NCBI GenBank assembly: GCA_963663225.1
Contig: OY760142.1
Location: 2,208,001 to 2,272,000, forward strand
Reading direction: 5' to 3'
From: Nitrospirota bacterium
GTDB taxonomy: Bacteria > Nitrospirota > UBA9217
DNA length: 64,000 nucleotides
Under the pieces are notes generated by a model, which was given only the letters and a program-made list of their open reading frames with translations, searched no databases and had not been told where the DNA came from. Positions 54,212 to 61,034 of the stretch are shown here, piece after piece (within the stretch, counting starts at the first letter, position 1; every line of letters starts with the position of its first letter). A program made the position numbers and the translations under genes.

Positions 54212-56770
54212 TCAGGACGCCACCCTTGATGCTTTACGGAGTTTTATTATCTCAAACCATACTATGCTTACAATTCCGGCGGAGAAGCAGAGCGCGAGGT
54301 CTATTCCATGCAGCGTATTGAACTGGAAGAGTGTGTGCATGAACGGGGTGTAGAGCACAATGCCCAGAAACAGAACCGCTCCGCCCAGGACCATCCAAAG
54401 CGCGGGATTGGGATACCGGAATGTCCTGAGGATGCTGCGGGTCCATGATCTGTTTGTCAGGATCAGTCCGAGATTCGCTATGATGAGCGTCGTAAAGCAG
54501 AGGGTCCTCGCTTCAGATTCACCTTGATTGCGATACAGCGCTGTAACATATACCAGGAAAACAACGAGCAGTACAGCGGCCCCTTGCAGCAGACTGAACG
54601 CAATCATGCTGTGGCCGAAGAGCGGAACCCCGAGACTGCGGGGCGGACGCTTCATGATGTCCGACTCCTCCGTCTCCGCTTCGAATACGATTGAGCAGGC
54701 CGGATCGATGATCAATTCAAGAAATACGATATGCACCGGCAGCAGCACCAGCGGCCAGTGGAGCAGTACCGGCAGCAGCGACATCCCGGCTATCGGTACG
54801 TGGACGGCAAAAATATACACCATGGCTTTTTTGAGATTGTCGAATATCCTTCTGCCCATTCTGACAGCCTGAACGATCGACGTGAAATCGTCATCCAGCA
54901 GCACGATTGCCGAAGCCTCGCGGGCAACGTCCGTCCCCCGTCCACCCATCGCGATTCCGATATGGGCCGCCTTGAGCGCCGCCGCGTCATTCACGCCGTC
55001 GCCGGTCATGGCCACGACCTCGCCGTTTGCCTTCAATGCGTTGACGATGAACAGCTTCTGTTCAGGAGCAACTCTCGCAAAAATATCAACGTTGCCGATC
55101 TTTTGCCGGAGCTCCGCCGCGCTCATCTTCTCAATTTCTGGACCCGTGATGACCTCGGCGCGGTTCTTCAGCCCGACTTCCGCGGCGATATTCTGTGCCG
55201 TGACCGGATAGTCTCCGGTTATCATCACGACTCGTATCCCGGCCTCGGAGCACTCCTTGACGGCCTCCGTCACACCCGGCCGGACAGGATCCGCCAGACC
55301 TATCAGCCCCATGAAATCAAAAACAAAGTCATGCTGCCCAGCCGGAAGCGAACCTTTTGAGAAAACAGACCGTGCTATACCGATGACCCTGAGCCCTTCG
55401 ACCGCCATTGTGTCGATGGCGCGGGTAATCTGCTCTTTCAGGGTTTCGTCCAGATGACAGATGTCGGCAATGGCTTCGGGAGACCCCTTTGCGGCAATAA
55501 TGAAGTCCTTGCTGTCAGGTGATTTCCAGACGCGGGACATGGCCAGCAGTTCTGGGGAGAGGGGATATTCCTCCACCAGGACCCAATCGTCGTGAAGATG
55601 GCCGGTATCGGCAAGCGTCCTGTTTCCGAGTTCACGCAGGGCCATTTCCATCGGGTCGAACGGAGCCGCCTGGCTCGCGAGAATACTGAATTCGACGAGC
55701 TCATGGATATTTTCATTGATTGTTTCGGCATCGTACGCCAGATCATAGAACGTGTTTCCAGAAAATACTTTTTTTACGGACATCCGGTTCAGCGTAAGCG
55801 TGCCGGTTTTATCAACACAGAGAACAGTTGCGGAACCGAGCGTTTCCACCGCCGGAACACGCCGCGTCAGAACTCTTTTTTGCGATATCCGCCACGCGCC
55901 GAGAGCAAGGAAAATGGTCAGTACTACCGGAAACTCCTCCGGAAGCATTGCCATGGCGAGGGTTATTCCGGCAAGCAGCCCGTTCAACCAGTTGCCGCGT
56001 GTGAGACCGTAGGCGACAACAACAAGAACAAAAAGTGCCAGTCCGATGAGCGCAAGATTCCGGACCAGCTTCGCGGTTTCTTTCTGCAGACGCGTCCGCT
56101 CGTGCACGATGGTGTTGAGAGACGTGCCTATTTTTCCTATCTCCGTGTCCTCGCCGATCGCTTTGCTTTCCGCGACGCCGAAGCCCTGCACAACCAGTGT
56201 TCCGGAAAATACGCACGGCAGGCAATCACCGCCCGGGCGGGACATTGCAGTAGAGCTTTCCGCGGGTGTTTTTCTTACCGGGATTGATTCGCCGGTAAGC
56301 AATGACTCATCCACGAAGAGATTGACGCAGGAAAGAACGATTGCGTCGGCAGGCACGCGGTCTCCCTCTGCCAGAACGATGATATCGCCCCGCACCACGT
56401 CACGGCCCGGTATCCGTTTCGGGGCTCCGTCTCTGATGACGAGGGCACGGGGGCTTGCGAGGTCCCGCAATGCCTCAAGAGCGCGCTCGGTCTTGCGTTC
56501 CTGATACAGTGTTATGCCTATGACCAGAAACACGAAGCAGAGCAGCAGAAGAGCTTCGACAACATCCCCGAGTAGCAGGTAAATGCCGCCCCCGGAAATC
56601 AGAAGCAAAAACATGGGTTCCTTTATGACCTCGAAGGCTATTGTGGCGGTGCTTTTCTGTTTGGACGCAGGAAGCTCGTTATGCCCGTCTCTGGCAAGTC
56701 TTATCCCGGCTTCCGTCTCGGAAAGCCCCGGAAAGTTCTGAATATTTGTAGCTGTTTTTATCATCAGCAC
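54212..56770 (-). CDS. Cation-translocating P-type ATPase (type II-like)
   Basis: LTGES, PEEFP, DKTGTLT, KGSPE, TGDGVNDA, DDDFTSIV. Confidence 0.93.
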   Translation of the reverse strand: MLMIKTATNIQNFPGLSETEAGIRLARDGHNELPASKQKSTATIAFEVIKEPMFLLLISGGGIYLLLGDVVEALLLLCFVFLVIGITLYQERKTERALEALRDLASPRALVIRDGAPKRIPGRDVVRGDIIVLAEGDRVPADAIVLSCVNLFVDESLLTGESIPVRKTPAESSTAMSRPGGDCLPCVFSGTLVVQGFGVAESKAIGEDTEIGKIGTSLNTIVHERTRLQKETAKLVRNLALIGLALFVLVVVAYGLTRGNWLNGLLAGITLAMAMLPEEFPVVLTIFLALGAWRISQKRVLTRRVPAVETLGSATVLCVDKTGTLTLNRMSVKKVFSGNTFYDLAYDAETINENIHELVEFSILASQAAPFDPMEMALRELGNRTLADTGHLHDDWVLVEEYPLSPELLAMSRVWKSPDSKDFIIAAKGSPEAIADICHLDETLKEQITRAIDTMAVEGLRVIGIARSVFSKGSLPAGQHDFVFDFMGLIGLADPVRPGVTEAVKECSEAGIRVVMITGDYPVTAQNIAAEVGLKNRAEVITGPEIEKMSAAELRQKIGNVDIFARVAPEQKLFIVNALKANGEVVAMTGDGVNDAAALKAAHIGIAMGGRGTDVAREASAIVLLDDDFTSIVQAVRMGRRIFDNLKKAMVYIFAVHVPIAGMSLLPVLLHWPLVLLPVHIVFLELIIDPACSIVFEAETEESDIMKRPPRSLGVPLFGHSMIAFSLLQGAAVLLVVFLVYVTALYRNQGESEARTLCFTTLIIANLGLILTNRSWTRSILRTFRYPNPALWMVLGGAVLFLGIVLYTPFMHTLFQFNTLHGIDLALCFSAGIVSIVWFEIIKLRKASRVAS

Positions 56771-57063
56771 CTTAAATCTATAAAACCATAATCTTGACTT
56801 TTATTATTATTGTATCAAACCTGCGACGGGATGTGGATACTGATGAATCTGCACTGAAGCCGATCAAGTTGGCTGGTATTAGCTTAATGTCTTATCGGTA
56901 GTATGTATATTATTATATATTCTTTAAAATATAATTTTCTTCCTGTTGTCGACACTTGGAACGATTGATCCTAGTATACAATTATGAAGTAGCATAGGTG
57001 GATGGAGAAGAGGTGTAAAAAAAATATCGCAGGCACCGTCGTGGGTGTTTTATTAACCGTCGG

Positions 57064-57127
57064 GCTGCAGTATCAATCCTTCAGCTCTGCAGCATCGCAT
57101 GCGACTTGTCGCCATTGATTCTGCAGC
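57064..57127. repeat. Inverted repeat (13/14 nt arms) enclosing a small hairpin
   Basis: GCTGCAGTATCAAT...ATTGATTCTGCAGC with internal GCGAC-TT-GTCGC. Confidence 0.55.
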
Positions 57128-57192
57128 TGCGTTTCTCTGTAAAGGCTTCTCAATTCTGCTTGAAATATGCACAGATGATACGCAGAATGCTC

Positions 57193-57239
57193 TTGACAAA
57201 AAGGCCTTCTCGCTTTATCATATTAGTAATAACTCATAT
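57193..57239 (+). promoter_or_regulatory. Sigma-70 promoter with overlapping ArsR/SmtB-type operator palindrome
   Basis: TTGACA(57193)-N17-TATCAT(57216); ATATTAGT-AATA-ACTCATAT (57220-57239). Confidence 0.7.
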
Positions 57240-57241
57240 AA

Positions 57242-57601
57242 GTGAAGGCTAATGTTATGACATCTAAAATAGAAAAACTGGCAAAAATATTCAAAGTGCT
57301 AGGCGACCCGAACCGACTCACTATCGTTATGTCGATCGGCAAAAGCTCTCGATCGGTGACCGAAATCATTAATACTACAGACTTGTCTCAAACCTTGGTA
57401 TCCTTTCACTTGAAAGCGCTCCGAAATGCCTCAATAGTCAAAACAGACCGCAGTGGGCCATTTATTTATTACAGCCTCACAGAGCCGTCACTCATGGATA
57501 TTCTGGGTGAACTCACGCGCACGGTTTCTTCCATAGATTTAATAGGATCGAAGATACAGGTGGCAACCAACGGGCGGGGCTCTGACAGGAGAAGGAGGTA
57601 A
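57242..57601 (+). CDS. ArsR/SmtB family transcriptional repressor
   Basis: FKVLGDPNRLTI, SVTEI, LSQTLVSFHLKALR, GPFIYYSL; start may be ATG 57257. Confidence 0.9.
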   Translation: MKANVMTSKIEKLAKIFKVLGDPNRLTIVMSIGKSSRSVTEIINTTDLSQTLVSFHLKALRNASIVKTDRSGPFIYYSLTEPSLMDILGELTRTVSSIDLIGSKIQVATNGRGSDRRRR

Positions 57602-57603
57602 CT

Positions 57604-57849
57604 ATGTGGTGGAACGGACCGGGTCCAGGATGGGGGCCGATGTACGGCTGGTGGATCATGCCGATATTCGGGATTATTTTCCTGCTGATCATTCTTTTCA
57701 TCGTCAGCCGTTTTTTCGGCAGCGGGAACGGCTTCTGCGGCAAGCGAGAACGGCGGGATGATGACGGCATACTTGAACTGAAAAAAGAGATACAGGAACT
57801 TAAGGAAGAAATCAGGGAATTAAAGAACGCACAGGGCGGAGGCAAATAA
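57604..57849 (+). CDS. Small single-TM protein with G/W/P-rich N-terminus and coiled-coil C-terminus
   Basis: MWWNGPGPGWGPMYGWW, TM helix, ELKKEIQELKEEIRELK; RBS AAGGAGG. Confidence 0.75.
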   Translation: MWWNGPGPGWGPMYGWWIMPIFGIIFLLIILFIVSRFFGSGNGFCGKRERRDDDGILELKKEIQELKEEIRELKNAQGGGK

Positions 57850-58329
57850 ATGGAAAAGGATAAAATCGGCGACATGTTGTCGCAGGTAAGCCCCGTTCAC
57901 AAAAAAGAAATACTCAATAACCTTATTGCCACCCTACTTAAAGACCTGAACGAAACTGATAAAAAAGAAGTATTTCAAGCGATTCTGACAGGAAGAAAAA
58001 ATTCAGGTCAAGTCATCGATATGGTTGAGCGCTGAATACAGGAATGCACGGATTCCGGCGTGAATCCTGTGGAGATGAGTAAAGAGGTTATTTCGGCCAT
58101 CAGCCATTCTTATGAACTTGCCACCTATTCTACACCTGAGCTACGGGGGCTTTTCAACGACTGGTTAGGAGAAATCGAACGAGAAATCATAGAATTTCTT
58201 TCGGAGAAAGATACGGTAGATCCAGACGAGGTTTCAAAGCATTTCAGGCTTGAACGCGAAAGTGCCATATTTATATTAAGCAGGCTAGCCCGTGAGGGCA
58301 AAATCAACCTTCAGGCATCGGGTACCTGA
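57850..58329 (+). CDS. Putative selenoprotein of unknown function (159 aa; UGA 58033-58035, UxxxC), helical with winged-helix-like C-terminus
   Basis: ORFs 57850-58035 and 58060-58329 are in the same frame, joined as MVER-U-IQECTDSGVNPVEM; hairpin at 58038-58070. Confidence 0.68.
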
Positions 58330-58355
58330 TGCACAGATCCGAGATAGAAGGGAGC

Positions 58356-58619
58356 ATGGACAATAAAATACTGAATACTGGAGCTATTACATCAGCGCTG
58401 GCCTATACGTTTTGCTGACAACTTGTTACAGTCCTAGCCGGTTTTGGGTTGGGAGGCTTCACCCCGGCAGTTTGGATAGATAAATACCGTTGGCTGTTTC
58501 TGGCGGTAGCGGTTGTGCTCCTTGCATTCGCCTTTTACCGGGCGTACAGGGACCGCGAAAAGACAAGCCCATGGGGATCAGGCTTTTGTAAGGAGCTTCT
58601 ATTCTCTGCCTTGTCCTGA
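58356..58619 (+). CDS. MerT-like membrane transporter, putative selenoprotein (CU motif, UGA 58416-58418); C-terminus possibly degenerate
   Basis: RBS GGGAG; MDNKILNTGAITSALAYTFC-U-QLVTVLAGFGLGGFTPAVWIDKYRWLFLAVAVVLLAFAFYRAYR; hairpin at 58432-58454. Confidence 0.72.
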
Positions 58620-58657
58620 TATTTTATTCCCTGCTGTAGAAGACAAAGGAGTTTACC

Positions 58658-60082
58658 ATGACAGACGATCTTAAAAAGAAAAGCGGCGGTGCTTCCTGCT
58701 GACCCCCCGATACTGATGCCGGTCGGCAGCAGAGCACTTGTACAAATGACGTAGAGCAGAAGCAGTCTAATACCGAGCACTGCATGGTTTGTGGCTCATC
58801 CCTGGAATACCTTGACCAGACAAGGCATATAACATGTTCATATTGCGGAAAGATCGAGGGCGGCCATATCATGTGCCCCAACGGTCACTATATCTGCGAC
58901 CATTGCCACAACCGGGGCGCAATGGAGATTATTCAAGATATTTCGCATATGTCAAACTCTAAAGACCCATTTGAGATTGCGGAATTGATGATGAGCTATC
59001 CAGGGCTTCCCATGCTCGGGTGCCAGCATGCCTACATCGCGAGCGGTGCGCTCATGGCCGCGATAAAAAATGAGGGTTCGCGGAGCATCACAAACAACGA
59101 TATGGATGAGGTCTTCAAACGCACCGAGAAACAAGCTCATGGCGGGTACTGCGGTCTTTCAGGCGTATGCGGCATCGCTCCAGCCATTGGGGCTTGCTTT
59201 TCAGTTCTTACCGGCTCAAAATGCGGCACCACCCAAGAGCAGCAGATCACCATGGAGGCTGTAACGCGTGTATCACGCGTTATCACCGACCTTACCGGCC
59301 CAAGCTGCTGCAAAGCATATGTGCGGGGTGCCCTGGAGGTTTCGGTATCGCTTTTGAAGGATAGTTTAAATATCATCCTGCCTTCGCCTAAAGAGAAAGC
59401 GACCTGCACTTACTCAAGCAAACATCCCCATGGCTGCCGAGAAGGACAGTGTCCGTATTTTGCTGTAACTGTAGAACCCACAAGAGCAGCCTTGAACATG
59501 AGTAAAGTACCTGTCTCACTAATCATAAGAAAAGTGGCTTCAACAGATAGCAAGATGAAAGAGTTATTAAAACGAGCTTTGGAGTTAGGCGCGGATAATG
59601 CAAAAATAATCTCCACTGATTCGGTTGTGGTAGAGGAGTGGGCCCGGTGGAAGTGCCAGTACGGATGCGCACTCTATGAAAAGGATGGCTGCCATCCACC
59701 CAATGCTCCTGATGCTGAAAGTACGAAGAAACTTATGAGAGAATACAGCACGGCCGTGCTCCTTAAGGGATCCAAGGGAAAAGCACTCACAGAAATTGCA
59801 GTTCGGCTTGAAGGAGAAGCTTACCATCAGGGCTACTATAAGGCATTTGCTTTAACGGCGCTTTCAAGCGGCGGCGGAAGCGGATCGACCTGACCCTCCG
59901 GCGATAAAGAGACTCCGGGTGAGTCTCAAAATATGGAACAGCAAAACATGAGAATCCGGCCTCTTATGGAAGCCTGCGGCATTGATGTTTTTAAGACAGC
60001 AAGAAACAACGGTTTTGAAATAGACACTAAAAAAGAAACATACGGTGGTTGGAATTACTTTGCACTTATTTTGGTGGAATAA
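58658..60082 (+). CDS. Cys-rich DUF5714-like + DUF2284-like fusion, putative selenoprotein with two Sec (UGA 58700-58702 and 59891-59893), 474 aa
   Basis: RBS AAGGAG; SGGASC-U-PP leads in frame into ORF 58784; after the second UGA the frame continues with RPLMEACGIDVFKTARNNGF..NYFALILVE*; hairpins follow both UGAs. Confidence 0.82.
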
Positions 60083-60388
60083 ATGAAGATTGAATGTTAC
60101 CTATCACAAGGTTGCTCTTCTCTTGAAGAGCTAAAAGCAAATATCGAACAGGCGCTTAACATGTCCGGTATTAAAGCGGAGATGTATTATTATCAAATAG
60201 GCGATGAAGAAGCCGCCGAATTAAAACTGGCCGGTTCTCCAACGGTCTTGATAGACGGCAAAGACATTGCCCCGGGTGCAGCGCCGGGATTTTCCTGAAG
60301 AACATACCGTGACGAGTCTGGCAGGCTCGGCAATGTTCCTACGGTTGAAATGCTTTTAAAAGCACTTCTTGTTAGCAAAAAGCAATGA
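60083..60388 (+). CDS. Thioredoxin-fold (DUF2703-like) putative selenoprotein, 101 aa (UGA 60296-60298)
   Basis: MKIECYLSQGC..GSPTVLIDGKD..PGFS-U-RTYRDESGRLGNVPTVEML; the family has an SCRxY motif at this position; hairpin at 60313-60329. Confidence 0.82.
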
Positions 60389-61034
60389 AGTGAGCAGCGA
60401 ATCTCGGTGTCCCATAACTGCTTTATAGTAGAGCAGAGACATCATAAGTTGATCGGCATCAGCAAGGCCCAAGACGTAGTTTGTACATGATACAAATCGT
60501 ATTTAATGATACTTGCGCGTGATCAAAATTGCGGAAAAGCAGGTGAAGTCCGTATCGCATCTTTTTGAATTACAGTGTATTATACGCAGTTTGTAAATAA
60601 GCTACAAGCTGAGTAACTGATTCGTGAAGCGAGTAATGGTTGAAAATTGCAACAAGCAAGCCGGCGACAAGGCAGCCTCCTGCGACCAATCCGAGAAATC
60701 GCGCAATCATCAGCATCATTTGAACATACAGTACCATCATACTAGTGTCCTCCTTGCCGGTCGAATATGCGTTTTTTGTTGTTGACCGGTGTGTGCTCCA
60801 GCATTTGTTATTTCACTGTTGATTAAAACATACGTCCTTTGGTCTTCTTTGTAAATGTGGAAGATACTGATGATGTCTCAGGTAAATCCGAAAGCTGTCC
60901 AAAAAAAATTTTATTGGGATCAGAAATGAGGATTGAGCAATGGAAATAGACTACAATGTAACGCGGGAGGAGGGCCTCATGTATTTTCGTTAGAATGAGG
61001 ACCGTGAGGGATGCGTGAAAATCGGGCATTCTCA

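What the first reader, a model, noticed from the sequence alone, without database searches (positions are those of the whole stretch)
57193..60388. Hidden selenoprotein-dense, ArsR-regulated operon: five in-frame UGA codons across four consecutive genes
Seen in sequence: fragments in the ORF track join into complete genes if UGA is read through at 58033, 58416, 58700, 59891 and 60296. Three of these UGAs sit next to or near Cys (UxxxC, CU, CU). Two sit where the families normally carry Cys (the DUF2284 Cys loop and SCRxY). Each is followed by a stem-loop. Genes are tightly coupled (TAA-ATG at 57849/57850 and 60082/60083) behind one promoter/operator. Established: bacterial Sec insertion needs a UGA with an immediately downstream SECIS; ArsR/SmtB repressors and MerT-type transporters act in metal(loid) responses. 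Inference: an uncharacterised selenol-based system for sensing, importing and processing a thiophilic metal or organometal (Hg, As or similar), which standard gene callers would miss. I cannot verify from here whether this gene combination has been described.
Basis: partly seen in the sequence, partly recalled or inferred. Interest (0 to 1): 0.93.

Follow-up and report, generated by a model that had tools for sequence, protein, structure and literature searches.

The report
ArsR-led operon of four selenoproteins
This is a real operon in which four consecutive genes carry five selenocysteine codons, but the protein families are already catalogued and what the system does, probably handling a soft metal or metalloid, is still only inferred.

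Summary
The five in-frame TGAs at 58033, 58416, 58700, 59891 and 60296 join fragments into four complete genes. These follow an ArsR-type regulator gene and a small membrane-protein gene, with gaps of at most 38 nt. The genome has selA, selB, selD and tRNA-Sec. Each TGA is followed by a hairpin with a G-rich loop. Four of the five TGAs are conserved as TGA in every orthologue examined (43 of 43, 15 of 15, 12 of 12, 15 of 15). The fifth has one TGA orthologue and one Cys homologue.

It is not an unknown kind of system. NCBIfam already has models for MbdU (met: 750 bits, cut-off 600), TsoA, TsoR and the DF family (all three below cut-off here). A 2026 review lists them, citing Haft and Tolstoy 2025, which I could not read.

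Three points go beyond the finding. The ArsR plus TsoA-like pair is a conserved cassette, seen in 31 of 40 loci, and it sits in front of varying selenoprotein cargo. It lies behind a conserved palindromic operator. The ArsR has no Cys, so it probably cannot sense metal itself.

A role in metal or metalloid handling is an inference from family resemblance. I rate it a new variant of a known kind, of moderate interest.

The parts
57193..57221 (+). Promoter-like site, TTGACA-17 nt-TATCAT
   Evidence: 11 of 12 matches, the best + strand site in 56770-60800. The same TTGACA ... TAT(A/C)AT arrangement is visible upstream of most ArsR orthologues (read by eye).
57220..57239 (.). Imperfect palindrome ATATTAGTAATAACTCATAT, the putative operator, overlapping the -10 hexamer
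   Evidence: The pattern TATGAGTA-N2-4-TACTCATA (at most 1 mismatch per half) occurs once in the 64-kb window, here. It occurs once in each of 14 of 40 related loci, always 19-120 nt upstream of the ArsR orthologue. It occurs twice in the 3.26-Mb genome.
57257..57601 (+). ArsR/SmtB-family regulator (114 aa), TsoR-like, with no Cys
   Evidence: PF01022 44.2 bits (cut-off 22); NF033788 75.7 (cut-off 55); TsoR NF045707 83.4 (below cut-off 115). It has 0 Cys and 1 His. 28 of 32 orthologues have 0 Cys.
57604..57849 (+). Small protein (81 aa) with one hydrophobic segment and a charged helical tail; no family match
   Evidence: A homologue lies between the ArsR and TsoA-like genes in 15 of 40 loci.
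57850..58329 (+). TsoA-like selenoprotein (159 aa): helical N-terminal part with invariant U62-x3-C66, and a C-terminal winged-helix-like domain. Sec-TGA at 58033-58035; conserved hairpin at 58050-58067.
   Evidence: (NF045695 99.7 bits, below cut-off 170).
58329..58619 (+). MerT-like membrane selenoprotein with two hydrophobic segments and a CU pair in the first. Sec-TGA at 58416-58418; hairpin at 58432-58454. The likelier start is the ATG at 58356, behind GAAGGGAG.
   Evidence: (PF02411 26.1 bits, below cut-off 32.9).
58658..60082 (+). MbdU, metal-binding double selenoprotein (474 aa; DUF5714 + DUF2284). Sec-TGAs at 58700-58702 (hairpin 58713-58732) and 59891-59893 (hairpin 59909-59927).
   Evidence: (NF045648 750.4 bits, cut-off 600).
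60083..60388 (+). DF-family thioredoxin-like selenoprotein (101 aa). Sec-TGA at 60296-60298; hairpin at 60313-60329.
   Evidence: PF13192 28 bits, cut-off 24.8; NF049942 63.9, below cut-off 70.

Best explanation
This is one transcription unit, 57193-60388 on the + strand. It encodes an ArsR/SmtB-type repressor, a small membrane protein and four selenoproteins carrying five selenocysteines. The five UGAs are read as Sec by the genome's own selA/selB/selC/selD system, directed by a hairpin 17-25 nt downstream of each UGA (shown up to translation itself, about 0.93).

The repressor most likely binds the palindrome that overlaps the -10 hexamer and autoregulates the operon (inferred from conserved position, about 0.8). 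Because the repressor has no Cys, the signal is probably received elsewhere. The best candidate is the TsoA-like protein that always follows it. That protein has an invariant selenol-thiol pair (U-x3-C) on a helix and an acidic winged-helix-like domain (inference, about 0.3).

The cargo probably moves and binds a soft metal or metalloid. The two-helix MerT-like protein carries a Cys-Sec pair where MerT has its Cys-Cys pair. It would pass the ligand to the Cys-Sec pair on the disordered, Lys-rich N-terminal tail of MbdU. The tail would deliver it to the Cys-rich DUF5714/DUF2284 body, which has a second Sec in a flexible loop. The thioredoxin-like DF protein would reduce or reset the selenenyl-sulfide bonds (inference by analogy to MerT/MerA hand-off, about 0.5).

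Arsenic or another methylatable metalloid is the leading guess for the substrate. DUF2284 is fused to arsenite methyltransferase in a sister family, and ArsM-like selenoproteins take MbdU's place in some loci. No call identifies the substrate.
For: Sec decoding:
- selA 597 bits, selB 376 bits, selD 372 bits (itself with 1 TGA) and tRNA-Sec 62.8 bits with anticodon tca.
- Hairpins with loops CGGCGU, GGUUUUG, GGUC, CGGGU and GGC follow the five UGAs.
- The first hairpin forms in 91.6% of cells over 37 distinct sequences. It has one compensatory pair (UA to CG in 2 sequences), and the third base of the loop codon varies freely.
- The U15 hairpin keeps its shape with a different sequence in Desulfobulbaceae-labelled loci.
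- UGA is conserved in 43 of 43, 15 of 15, 12 of 12 and 15 of 15 orthologues.
- Cys stands at the same positions in paralogues.
- TGA is also the ordinary stop of three genes in the operon, so no code change is involved.
- Contigs of two studies carry the stretch without a difference, and one piece covers 59891.

Operon and regulation:
- Gaps are at most 38 nt, with one strong promoter-like site and a palindrome specific to this position in 14 of 40 loci and in the window.
- An ArsR orthologue lies upstream of the TsoA-like gene in 31 of 40 loci. In 8 of the other 9 the contig ends within 1 kb.

Function:
- MbdU is a member of its family.
- The MerT-family similarity is weak, but the CC-to-CU correspondence is clear.
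- MbdU residues 1-40 and 402-436 are predicted to be disordered.
- ArsM/DUF2284 fusion family NF041536 gives 308 bits over residues 290-474.
- ArsM-like double selenoproteins sit behind the same cassette in L081 and L082.
Against: - No experiment or RNA data: no RNA run was available.
- Four of the five hairpins are no more stable than shuffled sequence.
- Covariation in the first hairpin is thin: 1 pair and 2 cells, and 104 of 500 shuffles reach the same pair count.
- The MerT match is below Pfam's cut-off (26.1 against 32.9), and the protein has two hydrophobic segments, not MerT's three.
- No MerA, MerP, MerB, ArsB/Acr3 or ArsC homologue was seen in the operon.
- The MbdU model is poor (mean pLDDT 58.5) and matches no solved fold, so the hand-off model has no structural support.
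- The cassette also precedes cargo with no obvious metal link: an FGE/SenA-like protein, a DsrE-like protein and a TsoX-thioredoxin reductase. This fits a redox or selenium theme equally well.
- The DF gene accompanies MbdU in only 1 other locus (L027).
Confidence: 0.6

Rival explanations
1. The ArsR plus TsoA-like pair is a selenium-linked switch and the operon serves selenium handling rather than metal detoxification. Full-length TsoA-like can only be made when Sec insertion works. It would then relieve, or help, the Cys-free repressor, so that Sec-rich cargo is expressed only when selenium supply is adequate. The cargo would traffic selenide or selenium species.
For: The cassette is constant while the cargo varies, and the cargo consists almost entirely of selenoproteins. 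The TsoA-like Sec is invariant and no Cys form exists among 43 loci. The protein is acidic (pI 4.9) and the ArsR is basic (pI 10.3). In L052 an MbdU gene lies a few kb from a SelD-like ORF (read by eye only).
Against: No known precedent turned up in the literature I could search. The MerT-like and ArsM-like neighbours point to metal(loid)s.
Confidence: 0.2
2. The operon is a thiol/selenol redox or reactive-sulfur stress system regulated by a non-metal ArsR (like BigR, HlyU or SdpR), with no metal involved.
For: The ArsR has no metal ligands. It gives weak hits to SdpR and BigR models, 54 and 51 bits, both below cut-off. DF is thioredoxin-like. Alternative cargo includes DsrE-like, TlpA-like and TsoX-thioredoxin reductase proteins.
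Against: BigR-type sensing needs a Cys pair in the regulator, and none is present. The CU pair inside a membrane helix and NCBIfam's metal-binding label for MbdU fit ligand transfer better. The link of DUF2284 to ArsM also argues against it.
Confidence: 0.12
3. The TGAs are not Sec codons. They would be stops in decaying genes, assembly errors, or read as Trp or Cys.
For: Three database relatives (P0007-P0009, JGI gene calls on 1-2 kb contigs) show W at the position of U62. A selC*-type tRNA exists in the genome.
Against: Wherever DNA could be read, the codon is TGA (43 of 43). The W forms are most simply gene calls made under a TGA=Trp code (inference; their DNA was not retrieved). Conservation on both sides extends across two phyla. 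TGA also ends three genes of the same operon. The selC*-type tRNA has a GCA anticodon, not UCA. Contigs of two studies agree with the sequence.
Confidence: 0.02

Closest known systems
Tso ('three selenoprotein operon') neighbourhoods, Haft and Tolstoy 2025, as summarised in review PMC13188914 and in NCBIfam models TsoR/TsoA/TsoB/TsoC/TsoX/TsoY
   Same: An ArsR-type regulator is followed by a small selenoprotein with U-x3-C, then further selenoprotein genes, some otherwise unrelated to each other. A canonical TsoA (185.8 bits, motif LULAEC) with its own ArsR lies beside a TsoA-like cassette in L114.
   Different: The TsoA and TsoR scores here are below cut-off (99.7 against 170; 83.4 against 115). 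The motif is [RHY]UI[QK]EC. No TsoB is found in the genome (best 66.8 bits against 805). No canonical TsoA is found in 401 genomes of the phylum. The cargo is MerT-like + MbdU + DF.
MbdU, metal-binding double selenoprotein (NF045648)
   Same: Full-length match above cut-off, with both Sec positions (CU and UxxG) present.
   Different: Nothing; the protein is a member. Its biochemical function is untested anywhere that I could find.
mer operon transport chain (MerT, then the MerA N-terminal domain or C-terminal Cys pair)
   Same: A small inner-membrane protein has a vicinal thiol(ate) pair in its first helix. A soluble partner carries a vicinal pair on a flexible tail.
   Different: The regulator is ArsR-type, not MerR. 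No MerP, MerA or MerB is present. The protein has two hydrophobic segments, not three. Sec replaces the second Cys. The Pfam score is below the gathering cut-off. My description of the mer mechanism is recalled, not taken from a call.
SAO (Sec-assisted organometallic) system, Haft and Gwadz 2023 (seen only through review PMC13188914)
   Same: A multi-selenoprotein operon with CU motifs, proposed to handle metal or organometal.
   Different: None of the Sao family models matched these proteins at E <= 0.1. No ABC transporter or MerB-like lyase is present.
ars operons and ArsM/DUF2284 fusion selenoproteins (NF041536)
   Same: An ArsR-family regulator. The DUF2284 half of MbdU scores 308 bits against the fusion family. 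ArsM-like selenoproteins replace MbdU behind the same cassette in L081 and L082.
   Different: The ArsR lacks the As(III)-binding cysteines. The operon has no methyltransferase domain and no ArsB/Acr3/ArsC.

Membership tests
Bacterial selenoprotein gene (Sec-UGA) | In-frame UGA with an open, conserved frame on both sides | tested here: met
Bacterial selenoprotein gene (Sec-UGA) | Hairpin (bSECIS) shortly downstream of the UGA with G in the apical loop | tested here: met
   for all five UGAs; conserved in orthologues for four. Stability alone is not above shuffles for four of five. No bSECISearch program or Rfam model was available (one search found none).
Bacterial selenoprotein gene (Sec-UGA) | selA, selB, selC and selD in the genome | tested here: met
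Bacterial selenoprotein gene (Sec-UGA) | UGA aligns with Sec or Cys in homologues | tested here: met
   For the TsoA-like protein only UGA forms were found, and no Cys form.
Bacterial selenoprotein gene (Sec-UGA) | Sec actually incorporated | not testable with these tools
   Needs 75Se labelling or mass spectrometry.
MbdU (NF045648) | Score at or above the curated cut-off of 600 bits over the full length | tested here: met
   750.4 bits, residues 12-474; 740.6 bits with 2 TGA in the genome search.
TsoA (NF045695) | Score at or above the curated cut-off of 170 bits | tested here: not met
   99.7 bits; 93.2 bits in the genome search.
TsoA (NF045695) | LULAxC motif | tested here: not met
   The motif here is ERUIQEC. 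Only the U-x3-C spacing is shared.
TsoA (NF045695) | Operon partners TsoB and TsoC | tested here: not met
   TsoB best hit 66.8 bits against cut-off 805. TsoC was not searched.
TsoR (NF045707) | Score at or above the curated cut-off of 115 bits | tested here: not met
   83.4 bits.
ArsR/SmtB metalloregulators | HTH_5 domain; NF033788 subfamily model | tested here: met
   44.2 bits (cut-off 22) and 75.7 bits (cut-off 55).
ArsR/SmtB metalloregulators | Metal-ligand residues (Cys in or near helix 3, or His/Asp/Glu set on helix 5; recalled definition) | tested here: not met
   0 Cys and 1 His, the His lying in the recognition helix. 28 of 32 orthologues have 0 Cys.
MerT (PF02411) | Score at or above the gathering cut-off of 32.9 bits | tested here: not met
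   26.1 bits. NCBIfam MerT models give 28-34 bits against cut-offs of 130-180.
MerT (PF02411) | Vicinal Cys pair in the first membrane helix | tested here: met
   Present as C-U. The Cys homologue in L118 has CC.
DF family (NF049942) | Score at or above the cut-off of 70 bits | tested here: not met
   63.9 bits; 56.1 bits. Thioredoxin_3 PF13192 is met, 28.0 against 24.8.

The most novel reading that the evidence does not exclude
The Cys-free ArsR and the Sec-containing, acidic, winged-helix TsoA-like protein form a two-protein switch. The selenoprotein would be the sensing subunit, either for a soft ligand through its U-x3-C pair or for selenium supply through its own need for Sec insertion. 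This portable cassette, with its TATGAGTA-N-TACTCATA operator, would gate whole sets of selenoprotein genes in Nitrospirota- and Desulfobulbaceae-labelled genomes. That would make it the first selenocysteine-dependent transcriptional regulator module.
Probability: 0.2. Interest if true: 0.75.

Novelty: new variant of a known kind. Interest (0 to 1): 0.45.

Why it matters
Operons this dense in selenocysteine are rare. They are where the chemical advantage of selenol over thiol can be tested in a defined pathway.

This locus offers a compact unit in a complete genome: regulator, candidate sensor, membrane carrier, Cys/Sec-rich binding protein and reductant. It also comes with a predicted promoter and operator and clear orthologue sets.

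The regulator cannot bind metal through Cys, and it is always followed by an obligate selenoprotein. That gives a concrete hypothesis about how such operons are controlled, testable by EMSA, pull-down and reporter assays.

For annotation, the locus shows that a TsoA-like subfamily and a MerT-like CU subfamily still fall below current family cut-offs. In public protein sets they are present only as fragments, or not at all.

Tried and rejected
- **Primary papers not held.** Haft and Tolstoy 2025 and Haft and Gwadz 2023 were asked for by PMC id and DOI and are not held. Whether this exact gene order is already in print is therefore open. I saw only passages of the review PMC13188914, passages of deep-Sep PMC12013277 and passages of Mukai et al. 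PMC5389517. Searches for 'TsoA'+'selenoprotein', 'DUF2284'+'selenocysteine', 'selenoprotein neighborhoods' and 'three selenoprotein operon' found only that review and a database paper. Supplements were not opened.
- **Structure of the TsoA-like protein.** Mean pLDDT was 69.3 and only the C-terminal 40-50 residues were confident. Foldseek against PDB gave no match at E <= 0.001; weak winged-helix matches had TM 0.66-0.80 on the target over about 50 residues.
- **Structure of MbdU.** Mean pLDDT was 58.5. Foldseek against PDB found nothing meaningful, and a sequence search of PDB found nothing.
- **Rfam.** The scan of 57000-60700 gave no SECIS family, only a chance-level sRNA hit at E 0.12.
- **Inverted repeats.** The repeat finder with seed 6 missed the imperfect palindrome. 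A script found it.
- **Database relatives of the MerT-like protein.** None found.
- **Paralogues in the own genome.** The four selenoproteins have none at E <= 1e-3.
- **Sequencing runs.** No RNA holder was listed. Run X6 (raw reads, about 4 in 100 read) laid nothing, so it is no test.
- **P0007's own contig.** The metagenome scan did not return it, so the 'W' residues in P0007-P0009 could not be checked on DNA.
- **One consensus hairpin for the U15 site.** Abandoned because the hairpin is shifted by one codon between the two lineages.


Full report
**What is there**

On the + strand, six genes follow one another between 57193 and 60388 with gaps of 0-38 nt:
- an ArsR-family gene (57257-57601);
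- an 81-aa membrane protein gene (57604-57849);
- a 159-aa gene with TGA at 58033;
- a 96-aa gene with TGA at 58416;
- a 474-aa gene with TGAs at 58700 and 59891;
- a 101-aa gene with TGA at 60296.

TGA is also the ordinary stop of three of these genes (58327, 58617, 60386). A change of genetic code therefore cannot explain the read-through.

**Are the TGAs Sec codons?**

The genome (one contig, 3.26 Mb) has the Sec machinery:
- selA (597 bits) and selB (376 bits), side by side;
- selD (372 bits, itself with one in-frame TGA);
- a tRNA-Sec with anticodon tca (62.8 bits).

Each TGA is followed by a hairpin whose loop starts 21-25 nt after the U and contains GG. On their own these hairpins are weak evidence. 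Only the first is clearly more stable than shuffled sequence (z -2.17; the others +1.06, +0.37, -0.98, -0.39). One of the three true stops also has a hairpin.

Comparison with orthologues decides the matter. For the first gene, the codon is TGA in 39 of 39 loci from species-representative genomes and in 4 of 4 metagenome loci. Its hairpin (GGAUUC-loop-GAAUCC) forms in 91.6% of cells over 37 distinct sequences. There is one compensatory UA-to-CG change, the synonymous positions in the stem are fixed, and the third base of the loop codon varies freely.

For the MerT-like gene, TGA is kept in 13 of 13 plus 2 of 2 loci. For MbdU, the CU motif is kept in 12 of 12 and the TUPSG motif in 15 of 15 sequences. 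The U15 hairpin has a different sequence but the same shape and a GGUC loop in Desulfobulbaceae-labelled loci.

Cys stands at the equivalent position in DUF2284 paralogues, in a DF homologue and in a MerT-like homologue with CC.

Three JGI database proteins show W at position 62. Their DNA could not be fetched. Every relative whose DNA was read has TGA, so I take these W residues to be gene calls made under a TGA=Trp code (inference).

Contigs from two studies carry the stretch without a difference. One of those studies is probably the source of the genome. I put Sec decoding at about 0.93.

**What the proteins are**

NCBIfam and Pfam gave the following:
- The 474-aa protein is a full member of MbdU, 'metal-binding double selenoprotein' (750 bits, cut-off 600; DUF5714 + DUF2284).
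- The 159-aa protein is related to TsoA (99.7 bits, cut-off 170).
- The regulator is related to TsoR (83.4 bits, cut-off 115) and is a clear ArsR/SmtB member.
- The 101-aa protein is thioredoxin-like and just under the DF-family cut-off (63.9 against 70).
- The 96-aa protein resembles MerT weakly (26.1 against 32.9).

The review PMC13188914 (passages read) lists MbdU, TsoA, DF and a 'putative mercuric transport protein' as known selenoprotein families. It also describes the Tso and SAO multi-selenoprotein operons, citing Haft and Tolstoy 2025 and Haft and Gwadz 2023, which are not held here. According to deep-Sep (passages), DF had no TGA-containing homologue outside one Desulfosediminicola species. 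The window and L027 add two.

So the kind of system is known. The finding is not a hidden new class.

**What is new relative to those labels**

1. The genome has no canonical Tso operon. There is no TsoB and only this one TsoA-family gene. No canonical TsoA was found in 401 genomes of the phylum.

2. The TsoA-like subfamily is distinct. Its motif is [RHY]UI[QK]EC, and it is 31-33% identical to a canonical TsoA that lies on the same contig in L114 and scores 185.8 bits.

3. In the 401-genome sample, the five genomes with a TsoA-like gene are five of the seven with a full MbdU. In all five the two genes are adjacent.

4. Across the 40 loci, an ArsR orthologue lies just upstream in 31. In 8 of the other 9 the contig ends within 1 kb, and L112 is the one exception. 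The small membrane protein is present in 15 loci. A MerT-like Sec gene follows in 13. A DUF5714-containing gene follows in 26: 13 fused to DUF2284 as here, 12 DUF5714-only, and 1 cut by the contig end.

5. In eight loci the cargo is different. It includes ArsM-like double selenoproteins with a similar Lys-rich 'NUP' N-terminus (L081, L082), FGE/SenA-like selenoproteins (L087, L088), and a DsrE-like selenoprotein plus a TsoX-thioredoxin reductase fusion (L089).

The ArsR plus TsoA-like pair is therefore a portable head placed in front of varying selenoprotein cargo.

**Regulation**

The best promoter-like site of the region (TTGACA-17-TATCAT) is at 57193-57221. Overlapping its -10 hexamer is the imperfect palindrome ATATTAGTAATAACTCATAT. 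Orthologous loci carry a cleaner version at the same place, such as ATATGAGTAATTACTCATAT.

The pattern TATGAGTA-N2-4-TACTCATA, with at most one mismatch per half, behaves as follows:
- It occurs exactly once in the 64-kb window.
- It occurs once in each of 14 of 40 loci, always 19-120 nt upstream of the ArsR gene.
- It occurs twice in the whole genome.

This supports autoregulation by the ArsR. But the ArsR has no Cys and a single His, which lies in the recognition helix. 28 of 32 orthologues have no Cys, and the other four have one Cys each at non-conserved positions. The regulator thus lacks the usual ligands for thiophilic metals.

The TsoA-like protein has an invariant U62 and C66 one helical turn apart. 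It has a confidently predicted C-terminal winged-helix-like domain. Some homologues carry a precomputed FeoC-like Pfam hit, and one is named a winged helix-turn-helix protein by NCBI. It is acidic (pI 4.9) while the ArsR has pI 10.3.

I infer that it may be the sensing partner of the repressor.

**Function of the cargo**

The MerT-like protein has two hydrophobic segments. Its C-U pair aligns with the C-C pair of a Cys homologue.

MbdU has a disordered N-terminal tail bearing CU and a low-confidence loop bearing the second Sec. It has 20 or more invariant Cys/His residues. Its DUF2284 half scores 308 bits against the ArsM/DUF2284 fusion selenoprotein family.

By analogy with the mer hand-off chain (recalled), I propose the path membrane CU, then tail CU, then Cys/Sec-rich body, with the DF thioredoxin-like protein as reductant. 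A methylatable metalloid such as arsenic is the leading guess for the substrate.

This is inference. The fold searches gave nothing. No RNA data exist. The varied cargo fits a selenium-handling or redox role nearly as well.

**Verdict**

- Observation: confirmed.
- Interpretation: partly supported.
- Novelty: a new variant of a known kind. It is a Tso-like, ArsR-headed selenoprotein operon with MerT-like, MbdU and DF cargo, and with a defined operator and a Cys-free regulator.
- Interest: moderate (0.45). It would rise to about 0.75 if the ArsR/TsoA-like pair proves to be a selenocysteine-dependent switch, which I put at about 0.2.

Noticed in passing
L014:1501-1644 (- strand; = G000:C1:522308-522451), directly 3' of selD: A second tRNA-Sec-like gene (RF01852, 48.9 bits, cut-off 47). 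Its anticodon loop is CUGCAAA (anticodon GCA, Cys codons), and it has a 55-nt insertion in the variable arm. ARAGORN does not call it. It fits the selC*-type tRNA-Cys that Mukai et al. 2016 (PMC5389517, passages) described, including in Thermodesulfovibrio and Nitrospirae. The very long arm and the position next to selD may be worth a look.
   Followed up: partly
L010 (G000:C1:522565-523479, - strand): The genome's selD itself has one in-frame TGA, so selenophosphate synthetase is a selenoprotein here.
   Followed up: no
L114:2527-3326 (- strand) and L114:5036-7015 (+ strand): A canonical ArsR + TsoA pair (TsoA 185.8 bits, motif LULAEC) lies divergently beside an ArsR + small protein + TsoA-like + DUF5714 cassette on one Desulfocapsa-labelled contig. 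The two subfamilies therefore coexist. A second, divergent ArsR-like hit also lies beside the cassette in L086, L088 and L103.
   Followed up: partly
L081:2811-3725, L082:2521-3531, L087:3087-4085, L088:1398-2471, L089:6200-7922: The same ArsR + TsoA-like head precedes other selenoproteins. These are an ArsM-like methyltransferase with two Sec and a 'KNUPSS' N-terminus, an FGE/SenA/EgtB-like protein with C-terminal HFNUFSFRC, and a DsrE-like protein with GVUPPC followed by a TsoX-thioredoxin reductase fusion.
   Followed up: partly
L052:4975-10444 (G385): Here MbdU follows an ArsR-like ORF directly, with no TsoA-like gene. A few kb downstream lie a second ArsR-like ORF, TauE-like membrane ORFs and a SelD-like ORF. 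All were read by eye from the ORF listing and were not tested against family models.
   Followed up: no
L054:5114-5380 and L053:3-275: In two loci a Met-rich 90-aa protein (MMKKIMGGMMKPEDMPEMM...) with no NCBIfam match takes the place of the small membrane protein just upstream of the TsoA-like gene.
   Followed up: no
proteins P0007, P0008, P0009 (JGI metagenome gene calls): These are full-length TsoA-like proteins printed with W at the Sec position. They are probably products of gene calling under a TGA=Trp code on short contigs. Such entries could mislead a check of whether homologues have Trp at the site.
   Followed up: partly
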